Assembly (NCBI RefSeq): GCF_009914755.1
Contig: NC_060935.1
DNA length: 64,000 nucleotides
Reading direction: 5' to 3' (one strand)
Source: the human T2T-CHM13v2.0 reference genome, Homo sapiens
Positions 28,941 through 49,390 of this stretch are shown piece after piece. A program made the position numbers and the translations under genes. The notes beneath the pieces were generated by a model. That model made no database searches and had not been told where the DNA came from. It was given only the letters and a program-made list of their open reading frames with translations. Each line of letters starts with the position of its first letter. The first letter of the stretch is position 1.

Positions 28941-31387
28941 TAATTTTTAAAATGCCCAGAATATGTCAGCAAAAACACACTTTCTAAAGAAATATTCTAT
29001 AAGTAACTAGAACAATAAAATCCTACTCATTCCAAGAATAGTTACAAATAAAAGCTGGAAAAACAATTTATAAAAATAGCCTATAAAATAAAGAGATAAA
29101 AAGGAGGAAAATGCACCAGAAATAGGGCTTTACCTCTGTGAAATATATCACAGAGGAGCATTCTGACTAGTTGAAACAACTTGTGCAGGCTGGTGGATAG
29201 GAGAGGCCACTATTGAGAAATCCTTTAAAGGAACAACAATTTGAACAACAGGTGTTTCTTTAAAAATAAAGAAAATGGAACATTTGTGAAGTGATTTTTT
29301 AAAACTAAAATTCCACATGCAATTTTATTGTAGAAACTTACCACAAGCTTAGTTGTCTAAAACAATATGTTTATTATGTCACATTTCCTGTGGTTCGGAA
29401 GTCTGGGCGTGGCTTGACTAGGTCTTTTGAGAAGCTGAAATCTAGGTTTCAGCAAGGCTTGCAATCTCATCACAGCATAGATAGCTTTGTAATAACTAAT
29501 CTTCCAGTCAACAAACATAATGTATTTCTCCACTTTCTCTAAAAAGAGTCTGGCGCCTCTTCCCCCTTGCTTCCACTGTTCCCTTGTGATCTCTGTGCAT
29601 GCTAGCTCTTCTTCACTTTCCACAATGAGTGCAAGCAGCCTGAGACTCTCACCAGATGCAGATGCCTAATCTTGAACTTTCCAGTCCTTGGAAGCATGAG
29701 CCAAATACACCTTATTTCTTTATAAGTTGCCAAGCCTTAGGAATTCCTTGATAAAAACACAAAAGGGACTAAGACACTTAATATATCTATTGCTATTGAC
29801 AATATAATTATTTTAAGTCATGTAGTCCTACTTTTTTATTGTCATACAGTTATACAAGTGATTTTAATATTTCCTCCATATACATCCTCCTTGCTAAATT
29901 CTCATTTTATATCTAATTTTTTTCTATAAATACATTTAAATTTTCTACACAAAAAATTCATTATCTGCAACTAATGACAGTTTGGTTCTTCTCTAACAAT
30001 TTATATTTAATTATGAATTGTCTTACTTTACTACATAAAGGACCCAGAATAATCCTGAATAAATGTAGGAAGTGTGTATAATTGTTGTGTTGCTGACAAT
30101 AATGTAACACTTTTCAGGTTTTATCACTAATAATGTTATTCACTGTAGGTTTAAAATAATTTTCTTGTTAGCTTAGGAAGTTTTCCTTTATCCTTATTTT
30201 TAAGAGTTTGCTTTAAAACTATGAATACTTGCTTTTTCATTCCAAAGATTTGTTGTCATGCATCTATTGAGATTATTATACTATTAAACTTTAAACAATC
30301 TGCTTCTGTGGTAAATGTGGTATTTAAAAATTAGAATGTTAAAATATATTTGAATATCTGGAATGAGTTCATCTTGATCTTGATACATTGTCATATTTTT
30401 TCTTTTCATATATTATAAAATTTTATTTGAAAAATTACTTCTGGCCCCTTACACTTCATTCATAGTGAGATATGCATATTATTTCCCTGCCTGTATTGAA
30501 CTTTTATTGTTCTTTTTTGAAGGATCCAAGGACGAATCCACCTCTTTGCATTTTTCAGCTTCCAGAGGTTGATCACAGTTCTTGGTCCCTTCAAAGCCAG
30601 CAATGTTGAGTTAAGTCCTTCTCACAAGGAAGGAGAAGAACTCTTCTGCCATTGTCACATCACTCACTATGACTACAAGCAGAAAAGGTTTTCCACTGTT
30701 AAGAATCCATGTGATTATACTGGACATGGGAGTGCATCCAGGATAATCTCCATATTTTAAAGTCAGAGTCTACCAATCTTAATTCTGCAACCTTTGACAC
30801 CCATGTGCCATATAATGTATTCAAAGGTTCTGGGGATCAGGATGTGGACATCTTTGTGGGGCTATTATTCTAAATACCACATTATTCTTGTCTAAGGATA
30901 TTGTCAAGGAAGATGGAAAACAATAACAGGTTATACTCCAGCTGAGGATTCATTGGCAGTAGAAATATCCTGTAACTTCAGTCATAGGGGAAGAACATAT
31001 TAAAAAGTGGGACAAATAGAGTTGTTGGGATGAGAAACAACCAACATGGATTTCTTTTTCTCCTTTGAAATACTTGTTGTGACATGGAGTGATACAAAAA
31101 TAACCAAACCAAAATAACCCAAACCAACTAACAACTTATTTCTATTATGGGTCTCATAACTTTGAAATGATATTCTGTGTCCTGGTTCTTGGAGAAGTAG
31201 GAGAAAGGAATGGTACAGAATCAAAACAATAATCAGCATTATAAAATAAGATGTCTTTATTATACTATATTTTGTCATTACAGGATTCTTAATGTGTAAA
31301 CTCCCAAATAGTCAGCTATATATAGTCTCACAGTTGTACATGGTGATTACCCAATAGTGTGAGAATAGGACAAATGTTTTGGAAACC

Positions 31388-31486
31388 TCAAACCACTGGG
31401 ATCTGTGGAAATGCCACATCATCATAGATATGTTCAGGAGAGACTACAGATCGTTCGTTCTCGTTATTTGGTACAAAAAACACAAC
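31388..31486 (-). pseudogene. Relic MS4A paralogue, candidate terminal exon
   Basis: VVFFVPNNENERSVVSPEHIYDDVAFPQIPVV-TGA, starting like the MS4A tails VVLILP and SVLFLP; acceptor tttcttcacAG; AATAAA at 31261-31256. Confidence 0.65.
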
Positions 31487-31559
31487 CTGTGAAGAAATAG
31501 GAAAATTCTAATTTTCTTATTTCTAATTATCTTATAGTTAGATAAGTAGGAAACTTATC

Positions 31560-32350
31560 TAAGTATACCAACAGGTATATGGGAAAGTACTGAAATCACT
31601 AACCATCAGGTAAATGAAAATCAAAACCGCAGTAAAATATTATCTCACACCTGTCAGGCTGGCAACTATAGAACAAAGCAAGTGTTGGTGAGGTTGTAAA
31701 GAAGTTGGTACCTTTGCACACTGTTGGTGGAAATGTAAAATGGTGCTGCCGCTCTGGAAAGACATATAATTTTTTTCAAAAACTTAAATAACTCCCATAT
31801 GATCCAACAATCCCATTTCTGGGTATTAATCCCAAAACAGTAAAATCAGGATCCCCAAGAGATATTAGCACTCCTATGTTCATTTAATCACTATTCATGG
31901 TAGCCAAAATATGAAAATGTGGTATATGCCAACCTAATACATAAATAAATAATGCTTTTGCTTTTTTTCTTCCAATAATGAAGAAAGGCCTTTTTAAGGC
32001 TTTAGAAAGAAGGAAATTCTGCAATATACTGCAACATAAATGAACCTTGAGGCCATGATGCATACGATAAAAACCAGTCACAGAAAGACAAATATTGCGT
32101 GATTCCAATCATACGAGGTATCTAAAATAGTGTGACTCATAGAATCAGAGGCTGAAATGCTGGTTACCAGGATCTGAGGATAGCAAAAGTGGGGAGTTGC
32201 TAATCAACAGATATAAAGCTTCAGTCAAGCAAGATGAGTAAGCTCTGGAGATCCTGTGTACACTATTGTACCTATAGTCAACAATAATATCTTGTACACA
32301 AAAATGCTTTAGGTTGCTAATCTCATGTTAAATATTCTTACCACAGTAAG
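31560..32350 (+). mobile_element. L1MA/MB 3' fragment inside the relic MS4A gene
   Basis: Degenerate ORF2 end (atcaaaaccgcagt...tatctcacacctg) and 3'UTR. Confidence 0.8.
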
Positions 32351-33016
32351 ATATACTATAGATATAGATATACTATTATTACATATATATACACACGTAT
32401 ATATATAAATATATATATGTATATTTAAAAAGAGTGGCAGATTAGACAAAGTGTCTAAACTGATTTTGTTTGTTTGTTTTAGCCATCCCTACACCTCATA
32501 GTATTTTGTTTGTTTTGTTTTGCTTTTGTTTGGCTTAGAAGTATCTTTTAGTCTTTAAAACCAGTTGCTTCTTATTTCACAACAGCCTGCATTTAACTCC
32601 CTGAACTTCTCACTCACTGTGGATGCCATTGAGGAAAATGAATGTATATGACCCAGTCATCTTAGCTTGTTGCTCAGAATCCTTGGAAATTATGGTGTAG
32701 CTACAGCTGTCAGTTTTCTGTTTTCTCTTCAGCTAGTGTTTCAAATCAAGAGGGAAGTGCTCCCTGGACTCTGAGTCCTTACAACATTTTCCATTGTCCA
32801 AGCACACAACATCAGAGTGGTCAGAGAGAAGAGGTTATTTTTTTTTCGGTACGTTATTCCTGGCATGGTTCAAAAGCCCAAATCCTGTAAATTTCAAGAG
32901 ATAGTCCAATATGTATAAGTCCAATGACTCCAGTTAGCTCCATGGTGAGAATTCACAAGGAAACCTCCTGAATATAAAACCTATTTATATTATTGTATTA
33001 GTGCAACAGTACTTAC

Positions 33017-33151
33017 TACAGAAAAAAATGTGCTATAAGTAGAGATACAAATTCTTCTTAAAAAGATATATATTACTTCCACAGCCATCAGAACTGTGCC
33101 TGTTCCTGCTGTGGTGGCACTGACTGTATTCATCCCCAGGCTGCCTTGGAT
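33017..33151 (-). pseudogene. Relic MS4A paralogue, TM3 exon, 135 nt
   Basis: IQGSLGMNTVSATTAGTGTVLMAVEVIYIFLRRICISTYSTFFSV with the GSLGMNxxS signature; acceptor ctttttctctccttttcAG, donor GTAAGT. Confidence 0.88.
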
Positions 33152-33560
33152 CTGAAAAGGAGAGAAAAAGATTTTTGGAAATATACAGTCTCGTGTTCTT
33201 TCTGTCTCTGAGAGTCCACAAAATGACATTTAACTCAGTTGATTTGAATTTGGATATCAACTTGGACAGTGCTCCCACTCTGGAAAAAAAAATGTTGGGG
33301 GGGAGGAAGCATCTGGTATAGAGGAAGCCTTGATTACATCAGGCTCCAATGCAGGGATTGTATTGCACATGGAATGTCATAGCACAGAGCTAAGTCTATC
33401 ATTCTTGCCTAAGTGTCACAGGGGAAAAATTTATTAGGATTACATGAGAACATTTCTAGGGAGCCTCTTTAGAGAACCAGCCAGGTTTGATGTGTCTTAT
33501 CCTTGCAGCTCAGGAAATGTCTCTTGCTAGAACTCTCAGGCTTAACCAAAAGACACTTAC

Positions 33561-33795
33561 CAGACCCTTGGTCGCTTTCCTTCCAGCAGCAAAGCCCCTG
33601 TTACAGACTTGTCCACTGACTCTCAAAGACATTAGCTTTCATATCCAGCATTCAGCAGTTCTTCCTAAATGAGGATACAAACCCAGTGTTGATGATGGTT
33701 ATGCTTCTGTGTACTAATTATTCAATTCATTTATACCTCTATTGTTTTTCCTGGCTGATTTGCTGCTATTTCCACAGTGCTCCAGACGGAAAGAA
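33561..33795 (-). pseudogene. Relic MS4A paralogue, 57-nt TM2b exon interrupted by a 178-bp insertion (33596-33773)
   Basis: Removing the insert gives exactly 57 nt, FFPSGALCFAAGRKATKGL, compare FIISGSLSIAAGIRTTKGL of MS4A4A; acceptor tttaatcAG, donor GTAAGT. Confidence 0.88.
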
Positions 33796-34006
33796 CTGAT
33801 TAAAGAGAATCAACTCAGAGCTTCCATCGGCACTCCCTTTCCTAAAATAATCTCCTACCTTCTCCCACTCTTTTGTCAATATTATTTACCCAAACAATTG
33901 TCCAAGTTTGGTATTTAAAATTAATGCATAGATTTTCAAGAGAAAATGATGAAGTCATTTGCAGATACCTGAAATTAGAAGTAGTAGAACAATGACTAGT
34001 ACTCAC

Positions 34007-34138
34007 TGAGAAGGATCCCCATAAATGATAGTTCATATTAATTATATGGAGAACTCCAACTGCATAAACAGTTGAAACAAAAAGCGCCATTGTGAGACGC
34101 AGGCATCGTGTCATCAGCCCAATCAGGATCTGAGCCTC
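34007..34138 (-). pseudogene. Relic MS4A paralogue, TM1/TM2a exon, 132 nt
   Basis: EAQILIGLMTRCLRLTMALFVSTVYAVGVLHIINMNYHLWGSFS, compare QILxGxM...YPFWG; acceptor tttactctccAG, donor GTGAGT, phase 0. Confidence 0.88.
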
Positions 34139-34339
34139 CTGGAGAGTAAAAAACATCCTGTGAGGAGGTGCATCTTCTCAGGGTGAAGGCCTTTCTAACA
34201 TCATTGCACATTAATTCCTTCCCCACCTCCGAGACTCCAAACTTGAGATATCTTGCAGGAAGATAAAAATGTATGCATTGTCTGTTCTCTTGTCCAACAC
34301 AGGATACTGCAATTAATCTTACTATTATTTATTTATATA

Positions 34340-34391
34340 TTTGCCATTACTTTTAATGGCAAAAACCGCAGTGACTTTTGCACCAACCTAA
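34340..34391. mobile_element. MADE1 (Hsmar1 MITE), partial
   Basis: gccattacttttaatggcaaaaaccgc...ttttgcaccaacctaa. Confidence 0.85.
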
Positions 34392-34625
34392 TACATAAGT
34401 AATGATAACATTTTTGTGTTTTTTTTCCTTCCAATAATGAACAGCTTTATTCAGTCCCTTTTCATTTTGTCAATTTGTAAGGTTTGTTTAGTTCAGAAAG
34501 GTTCAGATAGTTTTCTACCATACTCAGTGACCTGGAAAATGTGGATATCTTGAGGAAATCTCAGTCCTGTCTCAGGAAATGATGCTTTTCCCCTAAGCCT
34601 GTGCTCTGGTCTCGTGTTCACTCAC

Positions 34626-34788
34626 CCCTAGGACCTGGGGCTGCCTTTTCAGAAAAAGCCTCAAATCCTTCAGTTGCTGTTAGGGCAAGATCCAAGCCCC
34701 CGACTGGCTTGGTAGTAAGATGGTCTCTTTCCAAAGAAAGTTTATGATCCTTCCCTTGACTGCATCTGCCTCTGATGTCCAGGTATTG
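34626..34788 (-). pseudogene. Relic MS4A paralogue, N-terminal exon (in-frame stop, no ATG)
   Basis: ...WILP*QQLKDLRLFLKRQPQVLG|GTGAGT matches the MS4A FLKxxPKVLG exon end; TAA at 34682-34680; acceptor ccaacAG tentative. Confidence 0.8.
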
Positions 34789-36896
34789 CTGTTGGCACCA
34801 GGAGAGAAAACGCTTAGTGGAGAGCCACTTCTAAATATTTTCCTTGATCAATATCAAAATGTAGTGGCAAGAGATTTTGTGTCTCTGGAAAATAATATCA
34901 TAATAATATAATGATATTTGATTGAAATAATCAAATAATATTCATAATATTTTATTTCCACAACTTTGATTAGGGCAGAGCTGGATTTTTTACTTACATC
35001 CTCATTCTCGTATTGACCCAGGCAGTCAGCTAGGACAAATCTGCACTGAACTATAGCTGCCTAATCCTCGGCAAGGGAACACAGTGTTACTGACCTTATG
35101 CAAAGTATCTAAGCCTTGATGAACGAAATTTGGACATTTACCTTCCTGCTCAGATTCCAGAAAGAAAGAGAACTGACTATTTGCAGCAAAATTTCAGGCA
35201 ATATTTTTCCATACCCAAGTTTCCTGTAGCTCAGTTTACAGTGACCCCCACAGGCCTGGCGTTCACATCATCTCCACTTAGACTCCTTGTAAGATCAAAC
35301 ATGGGACTACTATAAGGCACGGTCTCTTCCTACCTTTGCATCTCTTCAGGGCACACCAATGGAAGTTATTGTCCTTTCTGGTGTGTGGACTCTAATTCAC
35401 AGTCCTCAAAGAGGATGAATACCTGTCTGATGTGTAATTTGTGATGAAACTTTGTCTTAGACCCATGGGCCACTAGTTTCCTGTGATTTATCTCACTCTC
35501 CTTGCCAGATAGGTATCTGCAATGTTTTTAAGTTTTGTAATATATCCCTGATATAATAATCTAACTTCACTTCTCACATGCTAACACAGTATCAATGTAA
35601 GAGCACATTGTCAATGCTAGCTCCCCTCCATTGCCGTGTCTCCTGAATAGTATGCATGTCTCGCTTGCCAGATTCACTGTTAATAGGACTCATGTTTCTC
35701 TGGCTTCATGTAATAAAAACTAACTATAAATTATGAGTGCTTCTGAATTAGGGATCTTCTTAAAAACATGATTTTATTTAATAATATTGTATTTTATAAA
35801 ATCCTTATTGTGTATCTTATCACATAACAGTTGTAATTATTTAATATACTTTCCCGACTATTACTTCTGTTTTTTTGAAAAACTCTCCTCCCGGTTCATG
35901 TGATTTCATTAGACTTGTAACCCCAGGTATGACAAAGTCTTTTCTTATGCCACAGTAACTGGACTGCTCTATTTTCTCATCCTTGTAAAATGGTAACTCC
36001 TTAGTGAATGCTTCAGAAGTTTCCAAAAATTCAAGAAAAATACCATATTGTTGGCAAATGTTAATTTATTGTGTATCATATTTAAGGCAGTAGGAAAAAT
36101 GTTTCATAGAACCAAAAGATTGACATCATGTAAACAAACAAACAAAAATCAGTTTGCTACTAACACTTTCCCAATCCACTCTCTCATCTTGGTATTTTTT
36201 TCTTTTTCTTTTTCTTTTTTTTTTGCCAAGGACTTCTTAAAATCTTTTCAGGATTTTTCTTATAAAATATTTTGTAATATTTGAAACAAAACAATAAGCC
36301 TAATAACATCCTGACATCCATTAACATTTAAACAATTCAACTTGGACTCTAAATTCCCTCTACAAATCATGTTAATTCTATGATTCCTCCACAAGAATTT
36401 ACATAGGTGAATATCTATACACATATGTATGTTTACATATATATGCACATATCTATATACATATATATGTGTCTTTTAACTTACTGATTTTTTTCTCCAT
36501 TGTAAGCACTTATTTGGATGTTCAAGACACATGATAATAGAAACATTTACTTCCAAGTTTAATTTTGTAAGGCAAAATTCTCATTTTGTTTCTGGACAAA
36601 AATATCTTTTGGGCCTTTATATCAGCCTCCTCATATATTTTCTCATTCCAGGGGAGAAACTGGTTTTCATCTGGTTCTGTCGATCAACCAGAAAACTCTT
36701 GGATATCCCATTTCAGAGTCAAAGATATTAACATAATGTTCATTACACTATTGTGTGTGTAATTGGTTAAATTACAGCATAATTTTCTCTTTCTTTGCAA
36801 CAGAATTGTGTTTTTGCCATGGAAAACATGTTCCCAATTAAGTGTGGTGACTGGAGGCCACTCATTGGTAAATTACAGATGTCACTTTATACCTGG

Positions 36897-36933
<37 letters not shown>

Positions 36934-37010
36934 AGCATGCATGTGTATATATACATATATATGTGTATCTTTATATGTGTGTGTGTGTGTGTATATATAT
37001 ATGTATATAT
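36897..37010. repeat. Compound (TA)n/(TG)n microsatellite
   Basis: Directly visible. Confidence 0.95.
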
Positions 37011-37658
37011 CTCCCAGATATCACTAGATAGGCTTTTACCAAAAACAAAACAAAACAACTGCAGGATGTCATTTTACAGCACTTTCAACTATCTCCATGG
37101 ATACAATATGATGTTGTTTCTCTGTCCAGTCCCAGCTAGATGCAACACAAGGAAAACTAGTTATCCATGGCACATGGACCAGACCATTAAAGAACAATGG
37201 TAAAGACACCACTTTCCACAATACCCTTCCGTGAGTTAGTCTCACTGTCGCTTTTGCATAGATGCATGTCCCTGTTACAGACTTGTCCACTGACTCTCAA
37301 AGACATTAGCTTTCATATCCAGCATTCAGCAGTTCTTCCGAAATGAGGATACAAGGCAAGTGTTGATGATGGTTATGCTCTAGTGTCCTAATTATTCCCT
37401 TCATTTACACCTCTATTGTTTTTCCTGGCTGACTTGCTGCTATTTCCACTTCCCTGGAGTAGTGCTAGCTCTACACCTATTTAGGTTAGCAAGTCCTGTT
37501 CACTCTTATAAGGTGTCTTTGGGGATAGATTTGTTAGGGTGTAACTCAGCACAGTAACCCCACAGAGGGTTCTAATTTCCCCTCAGATATGTGGTCTTGT
37601 GGTATTTCTATAATGTGTTATATTTCTAGATTTTTATGTGTATTTCCAGAAAAAAAAA

Positions 37659-38812
<1,154 letters not shown>

Positions 38813-42849: not shown

Positions 42850-43189
42850 ATAATAAATAACTTTTGAAAAATGCATAGTTTCCCCTCACTGATGACATGT
42901 GGAGACACTGTAAAGGACAAAGGTAGCAAGTGTGATTTCCTGTGGTCAAGTTAGATACCTCCAGTGAATTCCAGATACCTTGTTTTGCCTTTTTCTATTT
43001 CTCTTGGGAGAAAAGTTGTTCCTCGTTATCACCATAAGGTGTCAGTAGAGTCAACTGTGCAGAAATTGGGAAAGGCCAATAATTCTAAAATCTTTCTCCT
43101 GCAAAGGGAAGAGAAAACATGTTTCCTACACAGTCTGAGTCATCCTATTTAGAGCATTCTACAACTTTCTTTCTCTCTTTTTTTTCCTC

Positions 43190-48895: not shown

Positions 48896-49324
48896 CTGAA
48901 AGAGAAATGTTGGGTAAGGATCATTGCTAATGACTCATGAATCTGTTATGCATCTTTGCCATTAAATTGTAAGTTATTCCCTTATCTGTCCCCTCAGGAG
49001 GTCTGGGATTGATCATTTATTGCTGTATGCCTCTCCAGTGTCCAGCAAAAATCTCTCAATCTCCAGGGTAATTCTTGGCTGAATGAATGACTATACGAAC
49101 TGGTTCACCTTAAGCAGGACCTCAGTGGTGTGGTAGAGAATGTTACTCTCCTAAATTCTTTCCCCAGGACAGATAGCAGGGCTTTCATGAGGCTTTACCT
49201 GCAACATTACCAAGAGAGCGTGACCCAAAGTGAAGGTGGCAACGTACCAGATGCAGTTTCTCTCTCGCTCAACTCAAAAACCCCTGGCGGAAGCATCAGC
49301 CACATGGAAAAGATAGATCATGTA

Positions 49325-49390
49325 TTAGCATGGTGCAAAAGTAATTGTGGTTTTTGCCATAAAACCACAATTATGTTTGCACCAACCTAA
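49325..49390. mobile_element. MADE1 MITE (palindromic) in an MS4A6A intron
   Basis: TIRs ttagcatggtgcaaaagtaattgtggttt / aaaccacaattatgtttgcaccaacctaa, TA flanks. Confidence 0.85.

What the first reader, a model, noticed from the sequence alone, without database searches (positions are those of the whole stretch)
31256..34788. Unprocessed MS4A paralogue (fossil tetraspan gene) about 10 kb downstream of MS4A6A
Seen in sequence: five minus-strand segments bounded by AG/GT sites translate to FLKRQPQVLG| EAQILIGLM..NYHLWGSFS| FFPSGALCFAAGRKATKGL| IQGSLGMNTVSA..| VVFFVP..stop, followed by AATAAA. All junctions are phase 0 and in the same order as MS4A6A, with exon sizes of 132 and 57 nt against 135 and 57 nt in MS4A6A. 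Established: FLKxEPKVLG, QILxGLM, Y(P)xWG, FIISGSLSIAA and GSLGMN are MS4A/CD20 family signatures. Several motifs are closer to MS4A4A/MS4A3 than to MS4A6A, so this is not a recent MS4A6A copy. Lesions: TAA at 34682-34680, no in-frame ATG, a frameshifting insertion, and no TM4 exon found before the tail exon. Inference: a distinct ancestral MS4A gene was lost in the primate lineage. I do not recall a pseudogene annotation here, but cannot verify that.
Basis: partly seen in the sequence, partly recalled or inferred. Interest (0 to 1): 0.9.

Follow-up and report, generated by a model that had tools for sequence, protein, structure and literature searches.

The report
LINC02705 is a dead MS4A gene
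The stretch is a broken, intron-containing relic of an extra CD20/MS4A-family gene next to MS4A6A, and its old splice sites are still used by the RNA annotated as LINC02705; it is a real but ordinary kind of gene fossil.

Summary
On the minus strand at 31.3-34.8 kb lie five MS4A-like exon relics in gene order. Each has an AG acceptor, and the four internal ones have GT(A/G)AGT donors in phase 0. A six-frame scan of the whole window with a profile of seven human MS4A paralogues put the TM3 and TM1 relics directly after MS4A6A's own exons (E 4e-5 and 2e-3; noise at most 7.4 bits). The joined core scores 69 bits against that profile; true paralogues score 54-88. A stored 77-aa spliced ORF identical to the window passes Pfam CD20 at 31.9 bits (cut-off 27.9).

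Five of LINC02705's six splice sites are the fossil's own.

Lesions:
- a TAA and no ATG in the first coding exon;
- a 178-nt insert in the 57-nt TM2 exon, copied from 3.7 kb upstream (93% identical, only these two copies in the genome);
- no detectable TM4 exon.

It is closest to MS4A4A (36 of 95 residues) but is a deep, unresolved branch and not a recent copy of any paralogue. Loss within primates is plausible but untested, because no other mammalian genome was available. I found no paper describing it. It is a new member of a known kind, of modest interest.

The parts
34626..34788 (-). Relic of the first coding exon. It ends ...FLKRQPQVLG followed by gtgagt. There is an in-frame TAA at 34682-34680 and no in-frame ATG. 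Its donor is the donor of LINC02705 exon 1.
   Evidence: The motif matches FLKGEPKVLG of MS4A4A and FFKRKPKVLG of MS4A4E at the same exon end. The acceptor at 34788 is inferred from the sequence only. The upstream part is not recognisable.
34007..34138 (-). TM1 exon relic, 132 nt, open, phase 0. It is identical in extent to LINC02705 exon 2.
   Evidence: It matches the MS4A4A TM1 exon at 13 of 40 residues, E 0.013. It scores 16.0 bits, E 2e-3, in the unbiased window scan. It has no Pfam hit on its own.
33561..33795 (-). TM2 exon relic: 21 nt (33775-33795) plus 36 nt (33561-33596) make 57 nt, split by a 178-nt insert. Its gtaagt donor is the donor of LINC02705 exon 3.
   Evidence: With the insert left out it matches the MS4A4A TM2 exon at 11 of 19 residues.
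33597..33774 (-). A 178-nt templated insert that frameshifts the TM2 exon and brings a TAG. It carries the acceptor (AG at 33666-33665) that LINC02705 exon 3 (33561-33664) uses.
   Evidence: It is 93.3% identical over 180 nt to 37270-37449 in the same orientation. These are the only 2 copies in the whole genome. One base of shared sequence sits at each junction. K2P distance is 0.070.
37270..37449 (-). Source copy of the insert, 3.7 kb upstream, inside LINC02705 exon 1.
   Evidence: Its flanks do not resemble the exon halves.
33017..33151 (-). TM3 exon relic, 135 nt, open, with a GTAAGT donor in phase 0. Its acceptor is the acceptor of the last LINC02705 exon (32523-33151), which then reads on unspliced.
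   Evidence: Pfam CD20 gives 19.6 bits for this exon's open frame read on to the stop (32990-33151), against 19.9 bits for MS4A6A's TM3 exon. It matches MS4A3 at 12 of 26 residues (E 0.003) and MS4A2 at E 0.007. It scores 21.5 bits, E 4e-5, in the window scan.
31388..31486 (-). C-terminal tail exon relic: cag|VVFFVP...PVV then TGA.
   Evidence: It matches the MS4A4A tail exon only weakly (8 of 21 residues, E 0.67). The motif count is post hoc. It is assigned mainly by position, strand, acceptor and stop.
31256..31261 (-). AATAAA, 127 nt after the stop codon of the tail exon.
31487..33016 (-). The interval where a TM4 exon is expected. None is detectable. It holds dispersed-repeat fragments (31567-31916 and 32008-32144) and a simple repeat at about 32360-32430.
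   Evidence: The TM4 profile gives background only (best 4.9 bits). One search shows similarity to other repeat copies in the window. The repeat family names are recalled, not tested.

Best explanation
This is a transcribed, unprocessed pseudogene of the MS4A/CD20 tetraspan family, lying tail-to-head behind MS4A6A on the minus strand.

What it keeps: the family's phase-0 exon plan, namely the N-terminal exon end, TM1, the 57-nt TM2 exon, TM3 and the tail exon, with consensus splice signals.

Why it cannot make an MS4A protein:
- the first coding exon has an in-frame TAA and no ATG;
- the TM2 exon is split by a 178-nt copy of sequence from 3.7 kb upstream;
- the TM4 exon is gone.

Transcription still runs through it. 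The RNA annotated as LINC02705 is spliced at five of the fossil's own sites plus one new acceptor that the insert brought in.

Shown here: family membership, the exon plan, the lesions, and the coincidence with LINC02705.

Inferred: the gene was once functional, it belongs to a deep MS4A4-like lineage, and it lost constraint within roughly the last tens of millions of years. The second inference rests on 324 nt of TM1-TM3 still being open and on the two insert copies differing by 7%.
For: Family membership
- An unbiased window scan puts e4 and e2 right after MS4A6A's exons, at E 4e-5 and 2e-3.
- The joined core scores 69.2 bits against a profile of 7 paralogues. True paralogues left out one at a time score 54.5-87.8 bits. 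The best of 200 shuffles scores 10.8 bits.
- Against all 8 paralogues tested, Z is 10-21 and 0 of 1000 shuffles reach the observed score in each case.
- Stored protein P0056 (77 aa) equals window 33561-33632 spliced to 32993-33151, letter for letter. It scores 31.9 bits against Pfam CD20, above the 27.9-bit cut-off.

Exon plan
- All five segments match the corresponding MS4A4A exons, in order along MS4A4A. MS4A4A is the top hit for e2 only; e1 is near-best, and e3b, e4 and the tail have better-scoring hits in other paralogue regions.
- Exon sizes are 132, 57 and 135 nt, all in phase 0, with AG acceptors and GT(A/G)AGT donors.

Lesions.

LINC02705
- The exon borders 34626, 34007-34138, 33561 and 33151 come from the annotation supplied with the finding.
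- LINC02705 is reported as expressed, and its level correlates with MS4A6A at r 0.458 (passage seen in PMC8627656).
Against: - e2 alone has no Pfam hit at E up to 10.
- The whole-genome Pfam scan did not list this locus among its 37 matches.
- The protein-to-genome search with e4 found only itself.
- e1 and the tail are weak when taken alone.
This inflates the joined scores, but not the scan.
- No intact orthologue was found. e4 and e2 gave no hit at E up to 10 in a database that does hold primate MS4A6A and MS4A6E proteins. An earlier functional state is therefore inferred, not shown.
Confidence: 0.9

Rival explanations
1. It is a unitary pseudogene in the strict sense. A separate ancestral MS4A gene, with intact orthologues in other mammals, was lost in the primate lineage.
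For: - It is a deep branch outside the MS4A4A+MS4A4E pair (support for that pair 86/94), with a terminal branch as long as those of distinct family members.
- Identity to the nearest paralogue is at most 38%, and there is no DNA-level similarity to any paralogue.
- 324 nt of TM1-TM3 are still open. That has probability below 0.05 if neutral divergence since the loss exceeds about 0.07 per site (the indel-to-substitution ratio of 0.1 is recalled).
- The insert copies differ by K 0.07.
Against: - No orthologue was seen, although the database holds ape, Old World and New World monkey MS4A6A/6E proteins. If an intact copy exists, it is not in annotated anthropoids.
- The open-frame argument is biased, because the exons were noticed for being open.
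- The trees reject no placement (p-AU 0.23-0.43).
Confidence: 0.4
2. It was a dead-on-arrival or short-lived tandem duplicate of an MS4A4-like gene. It never had a function of its own and has simply decayed.
For: - MS4A4A is the nearest relative on all four compared exons taken together.
- The cluster is built from tandem and inverted duplicates, for example MS4A4A and MS4A4E with 70-91% identity per exon.
- No orthologous protein was found.
Against: - All exons present keep consensus splice sites and open frames. This is not expected after the long neutral decay needed to fall from paralogue-level identity to 35-38%.
- It lies outside the MS4A4A+4E pair.
Confidence: 0.3
3. The locus works today as an RNA. 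LINC02705 would act as an enhancer-associated or regulatory lncRNA for MS4A6A, and the MS4A-like exons would only be its raw material.
For: - The transcript is annotated and spliced.
- PMC8627656 lists it in an enhancer-RNA table with MS4A6A as its putative target, r 0.458 (passage).
- A review reports it as raised in pulpitis (PMC11677139, passage).
- A review table lists it as a late-onset Alzheimer locus label (PMC11736697, passage).
Against: - Co-expression with a neighbour in one chromatin domain does not show function.
- Nothing tested here bears on RNA function.
- This reading is compatible with the pseudogene reading and does not replace it.
Confidence: 0.15
4. It still encodes a short protein, such as the 77-aa ORF from spliced exons 3-4 (half of TM2 plus TM3).
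For: P0056, which is identical to that spliced ORF, is stored in a protein collection. It starts at an ATG inside the insert.
Against: - It is a predicted sequence with no name or evidence attached.
- It would hold one and a half membrane spans of a four-span fold.
- Its start codon arose from the insert by accident.
Confidence: 0.03
5. The resemblance is chance, or the locus is a recent segmental copy of MS4A6A or MS4A4A.
For: Single-exon E-values against individual paralogues are only 0.003-0.9.
Against: - The scores and shuffles exclude chance.
- True paralogue exons give the same range of single-exon E-values against each other.
- There is no blastn match to any paralogue region, and identity to the five paralogues whose whole gene regions were searched is 28-42% (up to 38% over alignments of 86 residues or more), so it is not a recent copy.
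Confidence: 0.01

Closest known systems
MS4A4A (and its near copy MS4A4E), human 11q12
   Same: - The exon plan and phases are the same.
- The first coding exon ends in the same motif (FLKGEPKVLG against FLKRQPQVLG).
- The TM2 exon is 57 nt and matches at 11 of 19 residues.
- The TM3 exon starts VRGSLGMN against IQGSLGMN.
- The tail starts VVLILP against VVFFVP.
- It gives the best overall score: 158, with 36 of 95 residues identical.
   Different: - Identity is only 35-38%, whereas MS4A4A and MS4A4E share 70-91% per exon.
- It falls outside their pair in the tree.
- The TM3 exon is 135 nt against 159 nt.
- It is broken and has no TM4 exon.
MS4A6A, the neighbouring gene in the window
   Same: It is on the same strand, about 10 kb upstream, with the same exon order and phases and a 57-nt TM2 exon (annotation).
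   Different: - Among the eight paralogues with TM1-TM3 exons it is one of the less similar: score 92, above only the paralogues at 60.33, 60.38 and 60.41 Mb (84-87), with 27 of 86 residues identical.
- Its first coding exon ends in a different motif (HLHAEIKVIG).
- Its TM3 exon is 210 nt.
Transcribed unprocessed pseudogenes annotated as lncRNAs
   Same: Introns and splice sites of a dead gene are reused by a non-coding transcript. Disabling lesions sit alongside preserved exon borders.
   Different: Here one lesion, the templated 178-nt insert, also donated the acceptor now used by the RNA (annotation). I know of no named precedent for that detail, and I did not search for one.

Membership tests
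MS4A / CD20-like family (Pfam PF04103) | A significant match to the family profile | tested here: met
   - P0056, the spliced TM2-half plus TM3 and identical to the window, scores 31.9 bits against the 27.9-bit cut-off, E 1.6e-7.
- e4 alone scores 19.6 bits.
- The joined core scores 69.2 bits against my own 7-paralogue profile.
- The full joined peptide could not be given to Pfam, because joined sequence may not be typed into a tool.
MS4A / CD20-like family (Pfam PF04103) | Four membrane spans in the order TM1-TM4 | tested here: not met
   TM1, TM2 and TM3 relics are present and in order. No TM4 exon was found with a 7-paralogue TM4 profile. The locus is therefore filed as a relic of a family member, not as a working one.
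MS4A / CD20-like family (Pfam PF04103) | The chromosome 11q12 gene plan: phase-0 exons, one per span, with a 57-nt TM2 exon | tested here: met
   Sizes are 132, 57 (after removing the insert) and 135 nt, all in phase 0 with consensus sites. MS4A6A has 135, 57 and 210 nt (annotation). MS4A4A has 129, 57 and 159 nt.
Unprocessed pseudogene | Introns are retained and there are disabling lesions in the coding sequence | tested here: met
   - The introns between relic exons measure 487, 211 and 409 nt, and about 1.5 kb (coordinates).
- Lesions: TAA at 34682-34680, no ATG, the 178-nt insert and the missing TM4 exon.
Processed pseudogene (retrocopy) | No introns, a poly(A) tail, and a location away from the parent gene | tested here: not met
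   The exons are separated by introns with splice signals, and the locus lies inside the MS4A cluster.
Unitary pseudogene | An intact orthologue in other species and no working copy of the same orthology group in human | not testable with these tools
   - No other mammalian genome could be searched.
- Protein searches with e4 and e2 found no orthologue.
- The supplementary lists of the unitary-pseudogene survey PMC2864566 could not be opened.

The most novel reading that the evidence does not exclude
LINC02705 has been used as the label of an Alzheimer-risk locus. On this reading it is the transcribed carcass of a seventeenth human chromosome-11 MS4A gene, from an MS4A4-like lineage of its own. 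That gene was still under constraint until within primate evolution. It was disabled by a short templated insertion in its TM2 exon, and the same insertion supplied the splice acceptor the RNA now uses. Intact orthologues would then exist in some non-anthropoid mammals.
Probability: 0.3. Interest if true: 0.45.

Novelty: new member of a known kind. Interest (0 to 1): 0.3.

Why it matters
- It adds one member, a dead one, to the human MS4A inventory, which reviews count as 16 chromosome-11 genes plus TMEM176A and TMEM176B (PMC11663944, abstract and passages).
- It explains where the exons of LINC02705 come from.
- The MS4A cluster is a major Alzheimer-risk locus, and LINC02705 appears as a locus label in at least one review table (PMC11736697, passage). 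Knowing that it is a pseudogene transcript co-expressed with MS4A6A helps in reading expression-QTL and RNA-seq signals there. Reads or probes may also be wrongly taken as evidence of an independent regulatory RNA.
- The templated insert that both broke an exon and created a splice acceptor is a neat small example of how pseudogene transcripts are remodelled.

None of this changes any general principle.

Tried and rejected
- **TM4 candidate at 32857-32952.** The peptide ...GVIGLIHIGLSLEIY... has the same G-x10-LE spacing as the MS4A4A and MS4A6A TM4 exons, as I read it. It has no Pfam CD20 hit and is not among the top 25 hits of the TM4 profile scan. Its tblastn hits were to TM1 exons of other paralogues at E 0.46-4.5. 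Rejected as chance.
- **Tail-like sequence at 43001-43072.** E 0.018. At the DNA level only the acceptor tract aligns. Left open as a passing note.
- **N-terminal similarity upstream of the FLK motif.** None in any frame.
- **Whole-genome searches.** The protein search with e4 found itself only. The whole-genome Pfam scan does not list the locus.
- **Orthologue searches.** The search for homologous proteins with e4 and e2 found nothing at E up to 10. The control with an MS4A6A exon found 50 proteins, nearly all from primates. The representative library returned 4 hits at E up to 0.001: two ORFs of this locus and two multi-domain proteins at 34% and 46% identity. One of those two is CD20-family by Pfam.
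- **Trees.** Two trees were built, with 8 and 9 rows. The paralogue at 60.45 Mb was left out because its TM3 exon was not fetched. They leave the position unresolved.
- **Mirror-image hypothesis.** I tested whether the relic pairs with the paralogue at 60.33 Mb. Its score is 84, whereas that paralogue scores 200 against MS4A6A. Rejected.
- **Literature.**
  - 'LINC02705': 3 papers, none on its origin.
  - 'MS4A19P', a symbol I only half recall: 0 papers.
  - MS4A + pseudogene + MS4A6A + MS4A2: 14 papers by listing; one was opened and was irrelevant.
  - 'MS4A gene family' + phylogenetic + pseudogene: 3 papers, listing only.
  - 'unitary pseudogene' + MS4A: 1 paper, listing only.
  - PMC2826416 and PMC11663944 do not contain the word 'pseudogene' in their main text.

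Full report
**What is in the sequence**

The window is human chr11 (T2T) 60078001-60142000, as stated with the finding. A script fixed the borders.

| Relic | Window position | Size | Content and borders |
|---|---|---|---|
| e1 | ends at 34626 | - | ...FLKRQPQVLG then gtgagt; in-frame TAA at 34682-34680; no methionine back to a plausible acceptor at 34788 |
| e2 | 34007-34138 | 132 nt | open; gtgagt donor |
| e3 | 33561-33795 | 235 nt | see the section on the TM2 exon below |
| tail | 31388-31486 | 99 nt | starts directly after cag; ends in TGA; AATAAA at 31261-31256 |

**The TM2 exon and its insert**

- e3 is 235 nt long. It begins FFPSGAL (33775-33795) and ends GFAAGRKATKGL then gtaagt (33561-33596).
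- Between the two parts lie 178 nt.
- blastn shows that 33596-33775 is 93.3% identical (12 mismatches in 180) to 37270-37449, in the same orientation.
- A whole-genome DNA search finds only these two copies, so the insert is not a dispersed repeat.
- The alignment shows that the flanks of the upstream copy do not resemble the exon halves. One shared base sits at each junction.
- Removing 33597-33774 leaves exactly 57 nt in frame. This is the size of the TM2 exon of MS4A6A (annotation) and of MS4A4A. The restored exon matches MS4A4A at 11 of 19 residues.
The residue at the join is G, not C.

**Is it more than chance?**

Single exons are weak, as they also are for real MS4A genes.
- Pfam CD20 (PF04103) gives 19.6 bits for e4 and nothing for e2.
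- MS4A6A's own TM1, TM3 and TM4 exons give 34.3, 19.9 and 14.2 bits.
- The genome-wide exon-by-exon Pfam scan did not list this locus.

I fetched the gene regions of MS4A3, MS4A2, MS4A4E and MS4A4A and used the loci around other Pfam hits.
- tblastn places all five relic segments on the corresponding exons of MS4A4A, in order along that gene. MS4A4A is the top hit only for e2; for e1 it is near-best, and for e3b, e4 and the tail other paralogue regions score better.
- The E-values (0.003-1) lie in the same range as real MS4A6A or MS4A4A exons give against other paralogues.

I then cut TM1, TM2 and TM3 exons of seven paralogues at their splice sites and built a profile without the relic.
- A six-frame scan of all 3909 open fragments of the window gave MS4A6A's three exons first; these were in the training set.
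- Next came e4 (21.5 bits, E 4e-5) and e2 (16.0 bits, E 2e-3), in the right order along the profile.
- After that came noise at 7.4 bits or less. This scan does not depend on anyone's choice of segments.

The joined TM1-TM2-TM3 core was joined by coordinates inside scripts.
- It scores 69.2 bits against the profile. True paralogues left out one at a time score 54.5-87.8 bits. The best of 200 within-exon shuffles scores 10.8 bits.
- Pairwise, it scores 158 against MS4A4A (36 of 95 residues identical, Z 21). None of 1000 shuffles reaches the observed score for any of the eight paralogues.

The search of 1.84 billion representative proteins with e4 returned two ORFs of this locus.
- One of them, P0056 (77 aa), equals window 33561-33632 spliced to 32993-33151, letter for letter.
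- P0056 passes Pfam CD20 at 31.9 bits, against a cut-off of 27.9.

**What is missing**

- A TM4 profile from seven paralogues finds only MS4A6A's TM4 exon in the whole window. Nothing stands out between e4 and the tail, where the best score is 4.9 bits.
- A candidate I noticed at 32857-32952 fails both that profile and Pfam.
- The interval holds fragments similar to other repeats in the window.
- Upstream of the FLK motif, no frame resembles the MS4A4A N-terminus.

**Relation to the annotation**

The RefSeq table supplied with the finding gives the LINC02705 exons as 34626-37682, 34007-34138, 33561-33664 and 32523-33151.
- Five of its six splice sites are the fossil's own: the e1 donor, both ends of e2, the e3 donor and the e4 acceptor.
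- The sixth, the acceptor at 33664, lies inside the 178-nt insert (ag at 33666-33665).
- LINC02705 is therefore the transcript of this pseudogene. The insert both broke the exon and supplied the acceptor now in use.
- Papers mention LINC02705 only in lists (passages seen): an enhancer-RNA table with MS4A6A as its putative target, r 0.458 (PMC8627656); raised in pulpitis (PMC11677139); a late-onset Alzheimer locus label (PMC11736697).

**Which MS4A is it, and how old?**

- blastn finds no similarity between the relic and any paralogue region apart from shared repeats, so it is not a recent copy.
- MS4A4A is nearest by score and identity. MS4A6A, at 92, scores below MS4A4A, MS4A4E, MS4A3 and MS4A2 and just above the three lowest paralogues (84-87).
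- In the 8-row tree the relic sits with MS4A4A and MS4A4E with support of only 33/56. In the 9-row tree it falls outside that pair, which itself has support 86/94. No alternative placement is rejected (p-AU 0.23-0.43).
- It is best described as a deep, MS4A4-like lineage of uncertain position.

Two indirect clocks point to a loss within the last tens of millions of years.
- The insert copies differ by K2P 0.070. That corresponds to about 16-35 million years at 2.2e-9 to 1e-9 substitutions per site per year (the rates are recalled).
- The 324 nt of TM1-TM3 hold no stop and no frameshift. This has probability below 0.05 once neutral divergence exceeds about 0.07 per site (the indel-to-substitution ratio of 0.1 is recalled, and the exons were noticed because they are open).

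Against a very recent loss:
- Searches with e4 and e2 found no related protein at E up to 10.
- The same database returns ape, Old World and New World monkey MS4A6A and MS4A6E proteins for an MS4A6A exon.
- No anthropoid therefore seems to have an annotated intact copy.
- No non-human genome could be searched, so 'lost in primates' stays an inference.

**Novelty**

- I found no paper that describes this relic or the origin of LINC02705.
- The MS4A phylogeny paper PMC2826416 and the 2024 review PMC11663944 do not use the word 'pseudogene' in their main text.
- The supplementary lists of the human unitary-pseudogene survey PMC2864566 could not be opened and may bear on this.
- GENCODE and HGNC pseudogene tracks could not be checked.
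- An unprocessed pseudogene inside a tandem gene family, transcribed as a lncRNA, is a well-known kind of object. This is a new, or at least unpublicised, member of it.

**Verdict**

- Interest is modest.

Noticed in passing
window 43001-43072 (-): This short frame has an acceptor-like tract followed by LTLLTPYGDNEEQLFSQE. It resembles the relic's tail exon including its acceptor (10 of 24 residues, E 0.018), about 1.9 kb beyond MS4A6A's last annotated exon. At the DNA level only the pyrimidine tract and cag align. It may be chance or a second faint tail relic.
   Followed up: partly
L040, chr11 about 60165853-60165909 (-), MS4A4E TM2 exon: In MS4A4E the 57-nt TM2 exon (FIISVSLSVAAGIRTTKGL) has no in-frame AG acceptor directly before it, whereas MS4A4A has ttttag there. 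MS4A4E may not be able to include this exon normally.
   Followed up: no
window 32857-32952 (-): The open frame ...TGVIGLIHIGLSLEIY... resembles the TM1 motif of three other MS4A paralogues (7 of 9, 6 of 10 and 5 of 11 residues identical; E 0.46-4.5). It has a TM4-like G-x10-LE spacing. No profile supports it, so it is probably chance.
   Followed up: yes
stored proteins P0055 and P0056: Public protein collections hold two predicted ORFs of this locus. One is the unspliced 79-aa frame around e4, which differs from the window at one residue. The other is a 77-aa ORF across the LINC02705 exon 3-4 junction, which starts at an ATG inside the insert.
   Followed up: partly
window 34340-34441 and 31929-31982: These short stretches share similarity of 81-88% with each other, with 49320-49364 and with a site in the MS4A4A region. 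They look like copies of a small dispersed element in the relic's introns. The family was not identified.
   Followed up: no
L047/L048, chr11 60281001-60297000: In this 16 kb, where I expected MS4A6E from recalled coordinates, the core profile finds a TM3 exon very like MS4A6A's (22.7 bits) but no TM1 or TM2 exon.
   Followed up: no
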